Source: Chiloscyllium plagiosum (Eukaryota). From it: DNA of 44,281 bases. Shown in pieces: positions 120 to 44,281 of this stretch (position 1 is the stretch's first letter; every line of letters begins with the position of its first letter). Under the pieces are notes generated by a model, which saw nothing but the letters and a program-made list of their open reading frames with translations, was not told where the DNA came from and ran no database searches. Location: assembly GCF_004010195.1 (NCBI RefSeq), contig NC_057718.1:100482965-100527245 (forward strand), read 5' to 3'. The translations under genes and the position numbers were made by a program.

Positions 120-380
120 TTAATGCATTCTAGACTGACAGAGTGTATGTGCACGTAGTCCTGAATGAGTAAAGGAAGTAGATTAGTCCTTAACACAACT
201 TTAAGATCAGAGCCAGGTATATCTAGGGTTACCATATAGATAGCAAGGTTTAATATTAAAATGTAATAAAGGGTTTATTTTGATCTCTAAGCTTTAAGAT
301 AGTTCTTAATCTTGTTTTCTCCTGGACCAGCTGTCTCAAACATAATGTTTTATCAAATCACACAATTAGCGAGTTTTGAG

Positions 381-535
381 TCATCACCACAGGAAATGAA
401 ATCGCCAACCCAAAGAAACCCAAACATGTAAATAGGAAGCAGGAATTTTCAGCATTGCTTCGCCTGAGGCCCACTGAGGATGTTACCTAGTCTGGAAATG
501 AACTTTCCTGCTCAGCGAGCAAACCTACATCCAAA
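381..535 (+). mobile_element. Penelope-like terminal fragment with an internally deleted hammerhead motif
   Basis: CCA-CTGAGGA-TGTTACC-TAG-TC-TGG at 471-495 parallels the intact motif at 35397-35436, but the 3' half of stem II and GAAAC are missing. Confidence 0.55.
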
Positions 536-546
536 TCACACAATAA

Positions 547-15229: not shown

Positions 15230-15406
15230 TTAGATCAGAGTGGTGCTGGAAAAGCAGAGCAGGTCAGGCAGCATCTGAGGAGCAAGAAAATCGATGTTTC
15301 GGGCCAAAGCCCTTCATCAGGAATTCCTGATGCTGCCTGACCTGCTGTGCTTTTCCAGCACCACTCTAAACTCTGCTTTCCAGCATCTGCAGTCCTCACT
15401 TCTGCC
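15230..15406. mobile_element. Palindromic PLE-derived element (family A) with hammerhead core on the minus strand (15291-15321)
   Basis: Arms agtggtgctggaaaagcagagcaggtcaggcagcatc / gatgctgcctgacctgctgtgcttttccagcaccact. Minus strand CTGATGA-A-GGGC-TTTG-GCCC-GAAAC-ATC. TSD TTATTTAATTAAGT at 15216-15229 and 15407-15420. Confidence 0.8.
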
Positions 15407-15999: not shown

Positions 16000-16590
16000 T
16001 GATTTATTTACTGTCACTTGTACCAAAGCACAGTGAAAAGCTTTGTTTATGAGCAGTACAGGCAGGTCATAGTAAGCAAGGATGTACAGATCAAAAGATC
16101 TAGACAAAGCCATTCAGGTAACATTGGACAGATGTACAAAGAGATCAACGTTAGCATGATCAGCATGATTTGAAGTTAGAGAGTTCATTCATCAGTCTAA
16201 TAACAGCGGGGAAGAAGCCGTTCTCGAACCTGTTGGTGCGTGTGTTCAATCGTCTATAGCTTCTGCCTGACAGAAGAGGTTGTAGGAGATCATTACCAGG
16301 GTGCAATGGGTCTTTGATGCTGTTGGCAGCCTTTCTGTGGCAGTGAGCTGTGTAAATGGAGTCCATGGATGGGAGGTTGGCTCCCGTGATGGTCTGGGCT
16401 GTGCACACCACCCTCTGTAGTTTCTTATAATCCTGGGCAGAATAGTTGCCGTACCTGGCCGTTATACACCCAGGCAGTATGGGTTCAATGGTGCATCTGT
16501 AGAAGTGGGTGAGGGTCCTTATGGAAATGCTGAATTTCCTGAGCCGCTTGAGGAAGGAGAGGCGTTGTGCCTTCTTGACCAACATGGGAA
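16000..16590 (-). mobile_element. Rex1/Babar-like LINE 3' end (DUF1891-type RT C-terminus)
   Basis: ORF 16160-16585: KKAQRLSFLKRLRKF...LTHFYRCTIEPILPGCIT.RYGN...KKLQRVV.TA..ITG...LLSGRSYR...RTNRFENGFFP.VIRLMN. Confidence 0.8.
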
Positions 16591-17597
16591 GATCAGGTTG
16601 TCCATTATAGTGTGAGGACCTGTGTCCTAACTAAAGTCTTATACAACTGCAACGTGACTTGCCAACTTTTAAAGTCAATGCCCTGAACAATGAAGGCAAG
16701 CATGCTTGTAGGTCTTCTTCTGGTTTTGAGGGAATGTTAGTAAAGGTTCTGAATTTTCTCTCAGGTGGATGTAAACAATTCCATGGAACTCGTGCAAAAA
16801 TTGTACAGTGTCTTTGTCAATCATTTTCCCTCAAGCAAAACATTAAAATGGATTATTTGGTGATTACACCTTGTGGGAAGATAGTTGTACTCTAAAATTT
16901 TCCCAGTCTTTGCAGCTAATCAGGGATGGAGGATCTTAGAACAGTCAATATCTCCAGAGAAAAAGGTACTTGGTAAACTAATGAAATTTAAAGTTGACAA
17001 GTAGTTGGTAACTTAGGGCCTAAAAAGAAGTGGCTGCTGAAATATCAGAGGCATTGATTATCATCTTCCAACATTCCGTAGAATCGGGGAAGATCTCAGT
17101 AGGTTGAAAAACAGCAAATGTAATGTCTTAAATCAAGAAAGGGAGGGAGACAGAAGGCTGGAAGCTGTAGGCAGTTTGACTTGTACCTAGAATTGGAAAA
17201 ATTGCTGCTATCCATCATTAAGGAATAGTAACAGGACATTTAGAAAATCATAACGTAATTGAGCCATGTCAACAAAGGTTTATGAAATGAAAAGTATGTT
17301 TGAAAAGGTTTTTAAGAGCTCTTTAAAGATGTAACCAGCAGGGTGGTTAAAGAGGGTCCAGAAAATGCAGATTTCCAAAAGGTATTTGTGTGATGCCACA
17401 CAAACTATAGCTCATGACATTGGAATAATATATTAGCTGAATCTGGAATTGTCTAACTTACACAAAACAGTCAGGATAAACTGGTCATTTTTAACATTGG
17501 CAAGCTATAACTAAAGGGGTGTACAGGGATGAGTACAGTTTCCTCAACTATTTACAATTTATTTTTACAATTTGGATAGGACTGTTGAAGCCAAATG

Positions 17598-20650: not shown

Positions 20651-20918
20651 AATGTGAAGGTGCCGGTGTTGGTCTGGGGTGGACAAGGTCAGATGTCACA
20701 CGACACCAGGTTATATTCCTGATGAAGAGCTTATGCCCGAAACGTCGACTCTCCTACTCTTTGGATGCTGCCTGACCTGCTGTGCTTTTCCAGCTCCGCA
20801 CTTCTGTGACACCAGGTCATAGGCCAACAGATTTATTTGAAAACACAAGGTTTTGGAGCAGTGCTTGTGATTTCAAATAAACCTGTTGGACCGTAATCTA
20901 GTGTCGTGTGACTTCTGA
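20651..20918. mobile_element. Palindromic PLE-derived element (family C) containing a nested family-A fragment
   Basis: Arms gtcacacgacaccaggttat / taatctagtgtcgtgtgac; approximate flanking duplication ctttatt(g/a)caa. Confidence 0.65.
20716..20750 (+). ncRNA. Minimal hammerhead ribozyme motif (family A), sense to ISM1 intron
   Basis: TTC-CTGATGA-A-GAGC-TTAT-GCCC-GAAAC-GTC-GA: intact core and GUC triplet, with one A.C mismatch in stem II. Confidence 0.6.
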
Positions 20919-21610
20919 CTTTATTACAAGATGGTCTGTAGAATAAAAGTAGGGAAGTCTGGCTACAAGTATACAGCCCATTTGTGAGATCCTTTCAAGA
21001 GTATTGCATACAGCTTTGGTCTGGTTATTTAAGGATCAATATTCTATGAATTTGAGGCACTTCAGAGAAAATTCAACATGATGGAGATGTTTGTCTTAAG
21101 AGGTAACGGTTGAGCATTTTGGGCCTGTATTCAGTGTAGGTCATCTTATTAATAAACACATGCATTCTGAGGGAACTTGACAAGATGTTGAGAAGATGTT
21201 TCCTCTCTGGGGGGGAATATAGCACTAGGGGGCATTGGGGTCAAGCCCTCATCACTAAGGGGATTGTGAATCTTTGAAAATCTCTACCTAGAGACTGAAT
21301 TATTAACTGTGCTCAAGCCTGCTATTTTTGAGTTTTAGATGGTGGTTAATAGTTACAGGAAGCAGGCGGGATAATGGAATTAAGGCGAAAGATCAGAATT
21401 GTGCAGCAGAATCAAGCATGAATGGTCTACACTTGTTCAAATTTCTTATGTTTTCCTTGCCTATTGTGCTTCCATGATAGCAAGAGCGTTCACACATTCA
21501 GAGGCTCCTGTGTGCTGAGGGAAATTGTGAAAATACAGGTCTTCATTTTTAAGTATTTTACTAACTCTTTAAAACCGGTTGTTTTTCCCGATTTCCCCTC
21601 CTTTTCCAAG

Positions 21611-25343: not shown

Positions 25344-25907
<564 letters not shown>

Positions 25908-31652: not shown

Positions 31653-31860
31653 ATAAAAACTGAAAGAACTACAGATGCTGTAAATTTGAGACAAAAATAG
31701 ACATTACTGGAAAAGCCCAGCAAGTCTGGCAGCATCTGTGGCAAGAAATCAGAGACCGGTAGTTCTGAGGAAGGGTCATTTGGCCTGAAAAGTTAACTCT
31801 GATTTCTCTTTACAGATGCTGCCAGATCTGCTGAGTTTTTCCAGCAATTTAATTTTTTGT
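31653..31860. mobile_element. Palindromic PLE-derived element (family B) with hammerhead core at 31765-31790 (+)
   Basis: CTGAGGA-AGGGTC-ATTT-GGCCT-GAAA; arms ctggaaaagcccagcaagtctggcagcatctgt / acagatgctgccagatctgctgagtttttccag. TSD CCATAA(G/A)ATAATTT at 31639-31652 and 31861-31874. Confidence 0.75.
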
Positions 31861-34340: not shown

Positions 34341-35115
34341 ATTGGTTAGAGGCAGTTAAAGCATAAGTTGCTAACTTTGGTTGTTGTTCACTCAATGGGC
34401 AAAGAGGCAGTGAGCAGGAAAGGGTCTGTTGTTAGCGGTTTCCAGGCAGTCAGGGCTTGGGATAAGATCTGAGGAGTGGTGAGGCACTAGACGATTACTG
34501 GCTTTCTCAGAGAGGGGGAGCAGTCAGATATAGTGTCTCAATTTAACTAAAGAGCTGTGATTGGTTCTGAATAGCTGTATTGAACTGAATTCCCAGGGTC
34601 AATCAAGAGTGAAGAAAGCCTGCAAGTGGCATTTGCTTGGTGCACGCAAGAAATATTGCGGCTCTAGAAGAAACACAGGAACTGTGTCAGCTTAGTGAAG
34701 TCAGCTGCCTGTGAAAAAAAACCCCGTTGGAATTCGAGGTGCTGGAGTGTACCCTTGTGAATCCAGCGGAACACAGTCTCAGGGAAAGAAATTGAACTTT
34801 GCGCAGTCATTGAGGCAGTCCTTGTCAGGTTATGTATTCAAAAGTGAAGAATTGAATCCCACATGATGGAGGTAAAAGTTTTGAAGGTGATTTGGTGATC
34901 CCCATCATTTCACATCTGAATGGGTTACTGAGAAATTTAAGGGATCTACCATGACAGCATTTGCTATTTGATGTGATTTGTGGGAAATTCAACCATAGTT
35001 TGTCTGTTACCTTTTATTTGCCTCATGTTAGTTCTGAGATTCAAAGTTTGGGAGAAGATTTGTAGCTCGGGTGCTCGTTGTTGTGGTTCTGTTCACCGAG
35101 CTGGGAATTTGTGTT

Positions 35116-35155
35116 GCAGACGTTTCGTCCCCTGTCTAGGTGACATCCTCAGTGC
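35116..35155 (-). ncRNA. Minimal type I hammerhead ribozyme motif, intact (antisense twin)
   Basis: Reverse complement GCA-CTGAGGA-T-GTCACCTAGACAGGGGAC-GAAAC-GTC-TGC. Confidence 0.8.
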
Positions 35156-35396
35156 TTGGGAGCCTCCTGTGAAGCGCTTCTGTGATGTTTCCTCCAACAT
35201 TTATAATGGTTTGAATCGAGCGAATTCCTAGAGGCATGGCACTCATCCACAGATTCAATCAATAAGCACATCGACCTGGACCCAATATACCGACCACTGC
35301 AACGGGCAGTTGGAACTGACAACCGGAAGCGGCAGATTCAAACCACTACAAATGCCGGAGGAAAGATCACAGAAGCGCTTCACAGGAGGCTCCCAA

Positions 35397-35436
35397 GCAC
35401 TGAGGATGTCACCCAGACAGGGGACGAAACGTCTGC
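35397..35436 (+). ncRNA. Minimal type I hammerhead ribozyme motif, intact; predicted cleavage after 35433
   Basis: GCA-CTGAGGA-T-GTCACCCAGACAGGGGAC-GAAAC-GTC-TGC: stem I GCA/UGC, stem II GUC.CC/GG.GAC, palindromic ACGU in place of stem III, GUC triplet. Confidence 0.8.
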
Positions 35437-36947
35437 AACACAAATTCCCAGCTTAGTTCTGAGAGTTAAAATATTATTTTACACCCACACATATATACAT
35501 ATCAAATAGATATTATATGTTGAAACAGAGAAAAAGATTGTTTTACTTTGCTAGCCTTGTATTATTTATTGTAATTATTCAAAACTCTGGAATCCTATGG
35601 TTTTATTCTCTTAGTGGGTACCTGGGATTCCAGGTTAAGTTACTTTTAAACTAAAAGGAATGGCTGAACCCTAACCAGATCATAATTTAGCAGTCTCATC
35701 TGAAATCATAACACCAATAAAGAAGGATTTGTCCCTCACAACAATATTATCTTCTTGTATCGAATAATTGAATAATTTATTTCTATGCACATTTGTGTTT
35801 AGTAACAAATTCAGCAAGTATTAGCATTTCCAACACTGGTTTATCTCAGCATCAAAATCTCAAGTCAGTTCTTACGTGTGAGAGTGGAATTTCTTCCACA
35901 GTTAAACCGCATGTGTTCCCTCATTAAAGTCTTACTTCAATGTAATGTCATTGCTCCCAAAAGAGATTTGAACTTTGGTGATGTATTTGTTTGAGGGGCC
36001 CAAAGCTGATAGTAATTTATTAAGTTGGCTGCCCTCAACAGCTCAAGGGTAGTGGCGCGTACTTCAGGAAATGGTTCGCCATAATTCCAAAGATATTTAT
36101 TTAACTGTCAATGTTAATTAGGTGGCTCTGCAGAACCTGGTAAACATGTACAACCTTACGAGCAACTCCAGCGTCTGTGCTGGATTCCAACAATAAATGC
36201 ATTATTTCCTTTTTCGCTGTGGCATTACTGGGATTTTTTTTTTTTAACGTTTTCACAGCCGGGTGACTAGTTCAGAAAGTTAGTGCAGTTTCTTGCTCCG
36301 TATCAGAGCTTGAGACTGAAATTTCATAAGGCCATCCAAATGTTTCCTTTGCTTCGTAACACCATGAGGCTCAGATTTCCTGAGGCCCAAAGTACTGTGT
36401 GTCAAAGTTGTTGGGAGATCTAAAATCACTGCACAAGATTAATCAGAAAGATTTTATACCTTGTAGACTCTCGTATTTAAAAATGATTTGTTTTTAAAAG
36501 GTAACCAACTTAAAATCGATGGCAAAAATCATAATCACAAATTTTAGTTCAGGGATGTTTCTTTGATTTGAACATGTAAATGTTTAAATCAAGTTTGAAG
36601 ATATAAACTTACATCAGACCAACAGTTTTGGAATTAACAGATTTTTCTATGTTCATCTGTTCCTTTGTTCAGTTGTTCCTTCTCACATGTTTAGGTATAT
36701 TCTAGAGCAAATAAATAATTTCCTAGGTGCAATGATAGTGTCCCTGCCTCTGGACCAGAGGCACCAGTTCAAGTCTCACTTGCTTCAAAGGTGTGTCATA
36801 AAATCTCTGAACAGGTTGTTTAGAAACTATCTGGATTGTTTCCTGCCACAAGATTTACAGCTATGACGTTATTTGAAGTAAACTCCATGTTTACTACATC
36901 TCTCTCAGTCCAGTAATTTTTTTCACAACTCTCTGCAGCTGTAGATG

Positions 36948-37157
36948 TGGAGATGCCGGTGATCAACGGGTGGACAAAATCAAAAGTCTCACAGCACCAG
37001 GTTATAGTCTAACAGCTTTATTTAAAATCACAAGCCTTCGGAGCGCTGCTCCTTTGTCAGATGAAGTCTTCTCCTGATGAAGGAGCAGTACGTCAAAAGC
37101 TTGTGATTTTAAATAAATCTGTTGGACTATATCCTGGTGTCATGTGACTCCTGACTT
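36948..37157. mobile_element. Palindromic PLE-derived element (family C) with two mutated hammerhead cores
   Basis: Arms caccaggttatagtc...aaaatcacaagc / gcttgtgatttt...gactatatcctggtg. CTGATGA-AGGAGC at 37074; flanking repeat tgtagatg. Confidence 0.72.
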
Positions 37158-37979: not shown

Positions 37980-38150
37980 GTTAAAAATCACACAACACCA
38001 GGTTATAGTCCAACAGGTTTAATTGGAAGCACACTAGCTTTCGGACCGAAAGCTAGTGTGCTTCCAATTAAACCTCTTGGACTATAACCTGGTGTTGTGT
38101 GATTTTTAACTTTGTACACCCCAGTCCAACACCGGCATCTCTGAATCATG
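37980..38150. mobile_element. Near-perfect hairpin PLE-derived element (family C) inserted in a DeuSINE-like repeat (about 37760-38220)
   Basis: 65-bp arms 37980-38044 and 38046-38110 with one mismatch and a 1-nt spacer. TSD AATATTTATTATGT at 37968-37981 and 38151-38164. Confidence 0.88.
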
Positions 38151-38462
38151 AATATTTATTATGTAACAGCACCAAAACTGAGTATCATGCCATTGATTGT
38201 AGGAACTCGTGTGTGTAATTTTAAAAAAATGCATCCATGCGAAGTGGGTGGTGCTGGGCCAGCATTAATTGTTCTACCTTGATTGTCCAGAGAATAGTTA
38301 AGAGTCAACCACATTGCTTTGCGTCTGCAGTCACATATAGGACAGACCTAGCAACAATTTCCTTCCCTACAGGACATCAGTAAATCAGATACGTTTAGGC
38401 AGTAATCGACAATGGCTTCATGGTCATCATGAAATCCCAAGTCCAGAGTGATTTTTATCGAA

Positions 38463-38676
38463 GGAGGAAAAAGTGAGCACTGCAGATGCTGGAGATCACA
38501 GTCAAGAATGTGGTGCTGGAAAAGCACAGCAGGTCAGGCAGCATCTGAAGAGCAGGAGAATTGATGTTTCAGGCATAAGCCCTTCATCAGGAACCTGATT
38601 CCTGGTGAAGGGCTTATGCCCAAAACATTAATTCTTCTGTTCCTCAGATGCTGCCTGACCTGCTGGGCTTCCCCCC
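38463..38676. mobile_element. Palindromic PLE-derived element (family A) with hammerhead cores on both arms
   Basis: Minus strand CTGATGA-AGGGC-TTAT-GCCT-GAAAC-ATC (38561-38591); the plus copy is mutated (CTGGTGA...AAAA). TSD TGATTTTTAT(C/T)GAA at 38449-38462 and 38677-38690. Confidence 0.8.
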
Positions 38677-38764: not shown

Positions 38765-38910
38765 AACAAAAACAGAAATTGCTGGAGAAACTCAGCAGGT
38801 CTGGCAGCATTTGTGGAGTGAGAAACAGAGTTAACATTTCAAATCCAGTAACCCTTCTTCAGAACTTGAGCAATTTCTGTTTTTATTTCAGATTTCTAGC
38901 ATTCACAGTT
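38765..38910. mobile_element. PLE-derived family-B element with a degenerate hammerhead on the minus strand (38829-38864)
   Basis: Minus strand TTCTGAAGA-AGGGTT-ACTG-GATTT-GAAAT-GTTAAC; arms aaaaacagaaattgct / agcaatttctgttttt. Confidence 0.68.
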
Positions 38911-42850: not shown

Positions 42851-44281
42851 CCATAAGACCATAAGACATAGGAGCGGAAGTAAGGCCACTCGGCCCATCG
42901 AGTCCACTCCGCCATTCTATCATGGCTGATGGGCATTTCAACTTACCCGCATTCTCCCCGTAGCCCTTAATTCCTTGTGACATCAAGAATTTATCAATTT
43001 CTGCCTTGAAGACATTTAGCGTCTCAGCCTCCACTGCACTCTGTGGCAATGAATTCCACAGGCCCACCACTCTCTGGCTGAAGAAATGTCTCCGCATTTC
43101 TGTTCTGAATTTACCCCCTCTAATTCTAAGGCTGTGTCCATGGGCCCTAGTCTCCTCGCCTAACGGAAACAATTTCCTAGTGTCCTCCCTTTCCAAGCCA
43201 TGTATTATCTTGTAAGTTTCTATTAGATCTCCCCTTAATCTTCTAAACTCCAATGAATACAATCCCAGGATCCATCGGTGTGAATCTCCGCTGGACACGT
43301 TCCAGTGCCAGTATGTCCTTCCTGAGGTGTGGGGACCAAAACTGGACCCAGTACTCCAAATGGACCTAACCAGAGCTTTATAAAGTCTCAGTAGCACAAC
43401 AGTGCTTTTATATTCCAACCCTCTTGAGATAATTGACAACATTGCATTCGCTTTCTTAATCACGGACACAACCTGCATGTTTACCTTTAGAGAATCCTCA
43501 ACTAGCACTCCCAGATCCCTCTGTACTTTGGCTTTACAAATTTTCTCACCGTTTAGAAAGTAGTCCATGCTTGTATTATTTTTTCCAAAGTGCAAGACCT
43601 CGCATTTGCTCACATTGAATTACATCAGACATTTCCTGGACCACTCCTCCAAACTGTCTAGATCCTTCTGCAGAATCCCAACTTCCTCAGTACTACCTGT
43701 CCACCTAACTTTGTATCATCAGCAAACTTCGCTAGAATGCCCCCAGTCCCTTCATCCAGATCATTAATATATAATGTGAACAGCTGCGGCCCCAACACTG
43801 AACACTGCGGGACACCGCTTGTCACCGGCTGCCATTCCAAAAAAGAACCTTTTATCCCAACTCTCTGCCTTCTGTCAGACAGCCAATCCTCAATCCATAC
43901 CAGTAGCTCACCTCGAACACCATGGGCCCTCACCTTACTCAGCAGCCTCCCGTGTGGCACCTTATCAAAGGCCTGTTGGAAGTCTAGATAGACCACATCC
44001 ACTGGGTTTCCCTGGTCTAACCTACTTGTCACCTCTTCAAAGAACTCCAACAGATTTGTCAGGCACGACCTCCCCTTACTAAATCCATGTTGACTTATTC
44101 TAATCCGACCCTGTTCTTCCAAGCATTTAGAAACCTCATCCTTAATGATAGATTCTAGAATTTTACCAACAACCGAGCTTAGGCTAATTGGCCTATAATT
44201 TTCCATCTTTTGCCTTGATCCTTTCTTGAACAAGGGGGGTTACAACAGCGATCTTCCAATCATCCGGGACTTTCCCCGACT
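42851..44281 (-). mobile_element. Relatively young CR1 LINE, ORF2 reverse-transcriptase region to 3' tail (frameshifted; runs off the window)
   Basis: ORFs 43658-44233 ([16 protein letters not shown]...[12 protein letters not shown]...[12 protein letters not shown]...GVPQ.SVLGP.LF..YINDL...KFADDTKL) and 42816-43613; tail (ACCATAAG)n. Confidence 0.93.

What the first reader, a model, noticed from the sequence alone, without database searches (positions are those of the whole stretch)
35028..35464. Penelope terminus with two intact, oppositely oriented minimal hammerhead ribozymes around a GIY-YIG remnant
Seen: an inverted repeat of about 117 bp whose arms each hold GCA-CUGAGGA-stem II-GAAAC-GUC-UGC. 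Stem I (GCA/UGC) and a GUC cleavage triplet are present, and stem III is reduced to the palindrome ACGU. The spacer encodes the PLE endonuclease C-terminus (EFLEAWHS...SINKHIDLDPIY), and there is a 12-bp TSD. Established: PLE terminal repeats carry such minimal hammerheads, which are thought to cleave as dimers. Inference: this is the parental architecture of the short palindromes across the window. Either transcribed strand would contain one ribozyme plus its antisense, so hairpin formation could switch cleavage off.
Basis: partly seen in the sequence, partly recalled or inferred. Interest (0 to 1): 0.75.

Follow-up and report, generated by a model that had tools for sequence, protein, structure and literature searches.

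The report
Head-to-head shark Penelope retrotransposon stump
This is a short, dead piece of a common shark jumping gene that landed as two mirror-image ends, each carrying the small self-cutting RNA motif such elements are known to have, so it is real but of an already described kind.

Summary
Observation confirmed. 35040-35452 is a 413-bp insertion of a high-copy Penelope/Poseidon-type element, probably of a bamboo shark, flanked by a 12-bp duplication. Two 5'-truncated copies meet head-to-head, each with a minimal hammerhead; a model built from unrelated Penelope elements finds both. Inverted end, tail, duplication and opposite-strand hammerheads 100-700 bp apart are all in print. The window's short palindromes share the layout but belong to other families, so this is a sibling, not a parent. 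The hairpin would bury the ribozyme (+76 to +80 kcal/mol), but it is not a switch: the antisense arm is made first on both strands, each strand has one ribozyme where two are needed, and other copies join at scattered points, 6 of 12 cutting a ribozyme. One lead: the arms differ at two family-polymorphic sites, hinting at two templates (n=1). The scan noted such elements before in this genome.

The parts
35028..35039 (.). Left copy of the 12-bp direct repeat (putative target-site duplication)
   Evidence: exact, flush with the family's commonest listed end at 35039-35042
35040..35098 (-). One-sided extension ('tail'): continues the left arm into the start of the element's ORF, to +107 from the ATG; this copy has a stop at codon 18 that most family depth lacks
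   Evidence: (49 of 53 residues identical to the N-terminus of P0064)
35064..35102 (-). Predicted AC-rich stem-loop 3' of the hammerhead; candidate region for reverse-transcription starts
   Evidence: -11.0 kcal/mol; family ends at 35079 fall in its loop; role inferred from PMC11167929
35099..35217 (-). Left arm: inverted, 5'-truncated copy of the terminal repeat
35116..35155 (-). Minimal type I hammerhead; C3 at 35152, predicted cut between 35119 and 35118
35144..35146 (-). ATG formed by A9, the extra U and G10.1: likely start of the element's ORF
   Evidence: the frame matches the first residues of three 812-832 aa relatives
35218..35221 (.). 4-nt filler at the head-to-head junction
   Evidence: other copies continue upstream of 35222 with endonuclease sequence instead (loose ends)
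35222..35334 (+). Spacer: end of the GIY-YIG endonuclease (EFLEAWH...DPIY, about 35222-35302) and a C-terminal extension
35335..35452 (+). Right arm: sense copy of the terminal repeat, ending at +47 from the ATG
35397..35436 (+). Minimal type I hammerhead; C3 at 35400, ATG 35406-35408, predicted cut after 35433; 35414-35416 reads CAG where the left arm reads TAG, the point at which related proteins end
35453..35464 (.). Right copy of the 12-bp direct repeat

Best explanation
The locus is an inert by-product of one Penelope-like retrotransposition event. Shown: two 5'-truncated pieces of the same high-copy element lie head-to-head with their 3' ends outward, at +107 and +47 from an ATG inside the hammerhead, between 12-bp direct repeats. 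Both keep a hammerhead because both pieces are long enough to include it. Inferred: the element's endonuclease nicked both strands 12 nt apart, reverse transcription was primed at both nicks from two internal start sites near an AC-rich stem-loop, both cDNAs stopped early (after 178 and 231 nt) and were joined with a 4-nt filler. The ribozyme's real job belongs to the tandem parent transcript, where two same-strand copies can pair through ACGU, probably with help from the element's protein. In this copy a read-through RNA from either side folds into a 119-bp hairpin and should not cleave. About 0.85 for 'inert known by-product'; about 0.5 for priming at both nicks as the specific route.
For: Family identity and ORF geometry. 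High copy and fixed long end in 3 of 3 contig runs, with unrelated flanks at 35039-35042. Scattered junctions: 12 of the 15 listed joints are head-to-head, all at different points; 6 of 12 keep both ribozymes, 6 of 12 do not; 37 joints not shown. Same layout in 3 of 7 other palindromes of the window and in 3 distinct metagenomic loci among 80 (L019, L032, L061). Folding. Literature: opposite-strand pairs 100-700 bp apart and no monomer cleavage (PMC4209133); inverted truncated copy plus tail (PMC8557442); inverted repeat, tail and 8-10 bp duplication (PMC3846280); both strands cut and extended, two internal start sites, ORF starting at stem II, protein-assisted ribozyme (PMC11167929).
Against: No empty site seen, so the duplication is not proven. 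The asymmetry here is 59-60 nt, longer than the 30-40 nt tail in print; the family's ends at 35079 and 35040 are 39 nt apart and fit that length, but this copy's right end at +47 is not among the 18 listed loose-end rows (739 not shown). The joints are single contigs laid at 88% likeness. No cleavage or transcription data were obtained. One insertion cannot decide between priming at both nicks and fold-back.
Confidence: 0.85

Rival explanations
1. Same inert insertion, but the mirror arm arose by fold-back or self-priming and copying of one template, as proposed for rotifer Penelope elements, not by two priming events. This rival concerns the route only and is compatible with the main verdict.
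For: Proposed in PMC3846280 (Discussion) from palindromes at inverted junctions. The arms are 95% alike and 4 of 6 differences are not listed as family variants, so they may be later mutations.
Against: The junction is not a clean palindrome: 117 nt of unique spacer with a 4-nt filler. The arms differ at 35349 and 35365, where both letters are common in the family; chance of 2 or more such hits is 0.05 against 8 common sites but 0.24 against all 19 polymorphic sites. The arms end 60 nt apart.
Confidence: 0.35
2. One reading: the palindrome is a regulated unit in which hairpin formation switches ribozyme cleavage off.
For: The hairpin does exclude the hammerhead fold by 76-80 kcal/mol. An RNA starting at or after 35160 lacks the antisense of the ribozyme and regains partial stem II pairing (0.15-0.45). 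Both ribozymes have an intact core.
Against: No route to an 'on' state from read-through RNA: antisense comes first on both strands. One ribozyme per strand, and monomers of this type showed no cleavage (PMC4209133). 6 of 12 listed head-to-head joints lose or cut the left ribozyme. The ACGU self-duplex is only -1.7 kcal/mol.
Confidence: 0.04
3. The 413-bp unit is a non-autonomous element that moves whole, like a MITE, and is the parent of the shorter palindromes.
For: It has terminal repeats, a duplication and both cis ends; Penelope ends can mobilise what lies between them (PMC3846280, passages).
Against: Summed depth drops at the junction bin (1.1e5 against 8e5 or more in the spacer in X4) and copies reaching 35222 continue with endonuclease sequence, not the left arm. 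None of the 15 listed joints repeats. The short palindromes belong to other families.
Confidence: 0.05

Closest known systems
Minimal hammerheads in terminal repeats of metazoan Penelope-like elements (Cervera and de la Pena 2014, PMC4209133)
   Same: Type I core, extra nucleotide between A9 and G10.1, G10.1-C11.1 pair, palindromic 15.2-16.2 with no loop 3; the paper already reports pairs on opposite strands about 100-700 bp apart (here 248 bp between the C3 positions) and ties such motifs to truncated elements.
   Different: Stem I is 3 bp, against 4-5 bp in the Schistosoma families; stem II is 3+3 bp with a bulge. The parts read name fishes, coelacanth, frog and reptiles, not sharks.
Penelope/Poseidon insertions with inverted pseudo-LTR and tail (Craig et al. 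2021, PMC8557442; Arkhipova et al. 2013, PMC3846280)
   Same: Inverted 5'-truncated copy at the 5' end, head-to-head, tail at one end only, short duplication, repeat including the first codons of the ORF.
   Different: The body is cut down to 117 nt; the asymmetry is 59-60 nt, not 30-40; the duplication is 12 bp, not 8-10; no clean palindrome at the junction.
Poseidon of Anolis carolinensis, PAc (Frangieh et al. 2024, PMC11167929)
   Same: ORF starts at the base of stem II; cut site shortly after the start (28 nt from the A here, 26 there); AC-rich stem-loop downstream; main end at +107 against start sites at +111-118.
   Different: Here the upstream unit's ORF runs through the hammerhead core and stops in stem II, overlapping the next start, so no 3' UTR is left. 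Nothing was assayed here.
Non-LTR retrozymes (bioRxiv 10.64898/2026.07.22.740005)
   Same: Short, non-coding, hammerhead-bearing derivatives of Penelope terminal repeats; reported in one chondrichthyan.
   Different: Retrozymes are head-to-tail tandems with ribozymes on one strand; this is a single head-to-head pair.

Membership tests
EN+ Penelope-like element, Penelope/Poseidon clade | [quoted passage not shown] | tested here: met
   Met for the family, not the stump: P0004 and P0006 carry RVT_1 then GIY-YIG (weak Pfam scores; alignment); the stump keeps only the last residues (86% to P0004).
EN+ Penelope-like element, Penelope/Poseidon clade | [quoted passage not shown] | tested here: met
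   Read by eye in P0004: VVYKIPCKDC..HYIG, and no such cysteine cluster in the linker.
EN+ Penelope-like element, Penelope/Poseidon clade | RT phylogeny against reference clades | tested here: inconclusive
   The tree holds only fetched proteins, no named Penelope, Poseidon or Neptune references.
EN+ Penelope-like element, Penelope/Poseidon clade | Terminal repeat formed by partial tandem, including the ORF start | tested here: met
   The endonuclease C-terminus runs straight into a frame matching ORF N-termini.
EN+ Penelope-like element, Penelope/Poseidon clade | Inverted 5'-truncated copy with one-sided tail | tested here: met
   length 59-60 nt, above the published 30-40.
EN+ Penelope-like element, Penelope/Poseidon clade | Target-site duplication shown by an empty site | tested here: inconclusive
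   Exact flush 12-mer; no joint skipping the insert among the 15 listed and no contig spanning the site.
Minimal type I hammerhead of PLEs | Core CUGANGA / GAAA / UH, extra nucleotide after A9, G10.1-C11.1, palindromic 15.2-16.2 | tested here: met
Minimal type I hammerhead of PLEs | Covariation in stems I and II | tested here: inconclusive
   Across other families strong: 21-27 of 30 sequence-only hits pair at each of 7 positions, against 36-45% in shuffles. Within this family the stems show no listed variant at 5% or more, so no compensatory change can be counted.
Minimal type I hammerhead of PLEs | Self-cleavage as a dimer | not testable with these tools
   Needs an in vitro assay; the one raw RNA run laid 0 reads.
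Rfam hammerhead families | Score against Rfam covariance models | tested here: not met
   No hammerhead hit at E up to 1 in the window or up to 10 in 35370-35470.
Non-LTR retrozyme | Two or more head-to-tail units with hammerheads on one strand | tested here: not met
   One hammerhead per strand.

The most novel reading that the evidence does not exclude
The two arms of Penelope head-to-head insertions are copied from two different RNA templates, or two different repeats of one tandem RNA, by priming at both nicks, and this very abundant shark family, with common subfamily markers inside the arms and several distinct 3' ends, lets that be tested from a genome alone. It would settle how inverted Penelope ends and tails form.
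Probability: 0.3. Interest if true: 0.5.

Novelty: new member of a known kind. Interest (0 to 1): 0.17.

Why it matters
As a locus it matters little: it is one dead insertion among very many. It is a clean example of the known layout, and it shows a compact design in which one 40-nt stretch is ribozyme, end of one reading frame and start of the next. Its use is as material: how Penelope elements make inverted ends is called unresolved in PMC8557442, and comparing the two arms across this family could decide between two-template priming and fold-back. Such insertions would also give long perfect RNA hairpins wherever they are transcribed, which was not tested.

Tried and rejected
No whole genome is held, so copies could not be counted or aligned, and the empty site could not be sought there. 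Rfam: no hammerhead hit; the miRNA hits are palindromes of other families scoring below cut-off. RNA: no RNA holder listed; raw run X22 laid 0 reads, which is no test, and X16 is only guessed to be RNA. Contig 16 of X4 covers 35439-35650 but has only 14 letters inside the element, below the tool's 31, so it is not counted as showing the insertion in another sample. An exact pattern for this family's hammerhead found 0 metagenome stretches; viral contigs held no relative. Alignment A1 was too gapped to scan with; A2 replaced it. Model R1 and one search used a structure two columns off and were discarded; R2 and one search are the corrected ones. For A3, 6 of 30 hits were dropped because they did not pair or had a duplicated stem, so (95% paired, 62 double changes, 0 of 500 shuffles) is biased upward; one search uses all 30. 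Purifying selection on the ribozyme within the family was considered and left open: 0 of 11 variant sites fall in 29 core and stem positions (P 0.005), but P is 0.13 with 15.2/16.2 included and 0.18 for the core alone, and the stretch also codes in two frames. The bacterial promoter scan is not informative for a vertebrate. Pfam scan of 52 of 136 open frames found no host exon nearer than about 9 kb among those scanned. Paper searches with nothing specific: Penelope + shark + hammerhead ribozyme (1 review listed); Penelope + bamboo shark + transposable (2); Penelope + palindrom + shark genome (0); Penelope-like + twin priming + inverted (2 off-topic); Penelope-like + double-stranded RNA + inverted + hammerhead (2 reviews); Penelope + horizontal transfer + cestode (2). 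Repbase and Dfam could not be searched and may hold this family.

Full report
1. The observation. The arms lie at 35099-35217 and 35335-35453, 119 nt with 6 mismatches, around a 117-nt spacer. Each holds GCA, CUGAGGA, an extra U, a stem II of 3+3 bp with a bulged A, GAAACGUC and UGC. The pattern occurs twice in the window and in 0 of 100 shuffles. The predicted cuts are after 35433 (+) and after 35119 (-). An exact 12-mer flanks 35040-35452 (chance about 1e-5). Rfam has no matching model. I built one from hammerheads beside 80 metagenomic relatives of the element's protein; it finds both arms at 28-29 bits, ranks 3 and 4 of 13 matches in the window.

2. What the element is. The spacer frame matches 6 of 6 hits from Chiloscyllium and Hemiscyllium at 70-92%; the host is therefore probably a bamboo shark (inference). 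[quoted passage not shown] The stump keeps only the last ~27 residues of that domain. The frame then runs on through the hammerhead core; 4 of 6 relatives end at EDVT or EDVS, where the left arm reads TAG in stem II. A second frame opens at the ATG made by A9, the extra U and G10.1. It is 49 of 53 identical to the start of a Chiloscyllium protein and aligns with the first residues of three full-length 812-832 aa relatives (40-52% over 33-40 residues). So the arm is the junction of a partial tandem: end of one unit, ribozyme, start of the next. The left arm runs to +107 from this ATG, the right arm to +47.

3. The family. Laid at 88% likeness, three contig sets from three organisms put summed depths of 1e4 to 1e6 on the element against 0-50 on the outer flanks (not a copy number). 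Unrelated flanks attach at 35039-35042 in all three, and at 35079 and 35054 in one. Ends at 35079 and 35040 are 39 nt apart, the published tail length; 35079 lies in the loop of a predicted AC-rich hairpin. Of 15 listed joints (37 not shown), 12 join left-arm to sense sequence, each at its own point; 6 keep both ribozymes, 6 cut or lose the left one. Variants at 5% or more within the ribozyme (40 rows shown, 5 not) fall at N7, the bulge, loop II, position 17 (C to U in 33-51% of depth) and the CpG of the ACGU palindrome (6-9%). None falls in the core or stems I and II. That fits a constrained ribozyme but is weak and confounded by two reading frames. Across other families the stems covary clearly.

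4. The other palindromes. Seven were examined. None matches this element by blastn; they group into other families, several with their own hammerhead remains. Three have flush direct repeats of 14, 14 and 10 bp and a one-sided tail: 15230-15406, 37982-38150, 38459-38676. All three are head-to-head with 3' ends outward. Three of the metagenomic loci show the same layout (L019, L032, L061), and L037 shows the direct form 2.87 kb apart. The layout is shared by mechanism, not by descent from this copy.

5. The hairpin. The whole insert folds at -252 (+) and -270 (-) kcal/mol; forcing the hammerhead fold costs 76 and 80. On both strands the antisense arm comes first, and stem pairing stays below 1e-5 in nascent RNA. 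Alone, the right ribozyme forms its stems at 0.26-0.44 and the left at 0.01-0.02, and neither can close stem III. So a read-through RNA is permanently off. An 'on' state would need an internal start plus a partner in trans; nothing here shows either. No transcription data were obtained. The nearest host exon found is an isthmin-like AMOP exon at 25344-25907 (+), ending in a stop about 9 kb upstream (the gene name is recalled).

6. Mechanism. Shown: geometry, two different 3' ends, filler, scattered junctions. Inferred: nicks 12 nt apart on both strands, each priming a cDNA from an internal site, then joining of two truncated products. PAc cuts and extends both strands, starts at two internal sites that bound the tail, is predicted to be a dimer, and its ribozyme cleaves only with protein and is not needed for insertion in vitro (PMC11167929). 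The rival is self-priming fold-back (PMC3846280). The arms differ at two sites where both letters are common in the family (35349: T in 27-60% of depth; 35365: C in 13-56%), which leans towards two templates, but P is 0.05 to 0.24 by the set of sites chosen, n is 1, and gene conversion would look the same.

7. Known or new. PMC4209133 already reports opposite-strand minimal hammerheads 100-700 bp apart, and PMC8557442 and PMC3846280 the inverted copy, tail and duplication. I found no paper on this shark family in six searches; most subscription papers, Repbase and Dfam were out of reach. Two earlier notes of this scan reach the same kind of verdict for other pieces of this genome; they are unchecked and not counted as support. 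Verdict: new member of a known kind, interest 0.17.

8. What I saw of each paper. PMC4209133: parts 1-2 of 4 (abstract, results, discussion, part of methods). PMC11167929: parts 1-2 of 4 (main text). PMC3846280: passages and Discussion. PMC8557442, PMC8969392, PMC6765202, PMC8166898: passages. bioRxiv 10.64898/2026.07.22.740005: part 1 of 5 and passages. Lunse et al. on dimer cleavage: not seen, known only through its citation in PMC6765202. No supplements were read; those of PMC4209133 and the preprint may list shark motifs. Hammerhead numbering and the rule that U is tolerated at position 17 are recalled, apart from the features quoted from PMC4209133.

Noticed in passing
P0004 and relatives: Outside carpet sharks (Rhincodon 73%, Stegostoma 61-63%), the closest named relatives are from parasitic flatworms (45-56%), and in a 28-row tree the shark clade (97/96) sits among them; a snake protein groups with tapeworm ones. 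An old transfer between parasite and host is possible, but sampling is biased to annotated proteins, the joining forks are weak, and many close hits are unnamed.
   Followed up: partly
window 380-545 (+): Older, decayed end of a related subfamily: 49% identical to the C-terminus of a Stegostoma protein, with CUGAGGA kept and the GAAAC half damaged.
   Followed up: partly
window 15230-15406, 37982-38150, 38459-38676: Head-to-head stumps of two other families with flush 14, 14 and 10 bp direct repeats and one-sided tails; 37982-38150 has lost the CUGANGA half in both arms.
   Followed up: yes
window 20660-20925: A hammerhead-bearing stump of one family (20713-20752, best model score in the window) lies inside a palindrome of another family, apparently nested.
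   Followed up: no
window 31759-31800 (+), 38827-38868 (-), 37068-37108 (+): Further degenerate minimal hammerheads of other families.
   Followed up: partly
window 25344-25907 (+): Exon encoding a whole AMOP domain and ending in a stop; looks like the last coding exon of an isthmin gene (name recalled).
   Followed up: partly
P0003, P0007: Annotated Chiloscyllium isoforms of a 5'-nucleotidase-domain gene and of MAP3K7 end in this element's endonuclease sequence: exonised intronic copies or annotation artefacts.
   Followed up: no
window 43661-44239 (-), 16163-16630 (-): Reverse transcriptase fragment (Pfam RVT_1, E 3.5e-23) and an ALKBH8_N match, probably pieces of other retroelements.
   Followed up: no
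window 37986-38104: Scores 69 bits against the plant MIR860 model, below its cut-off: such palindromes can be miscalled as microRNA genes.
   Followed up: yes
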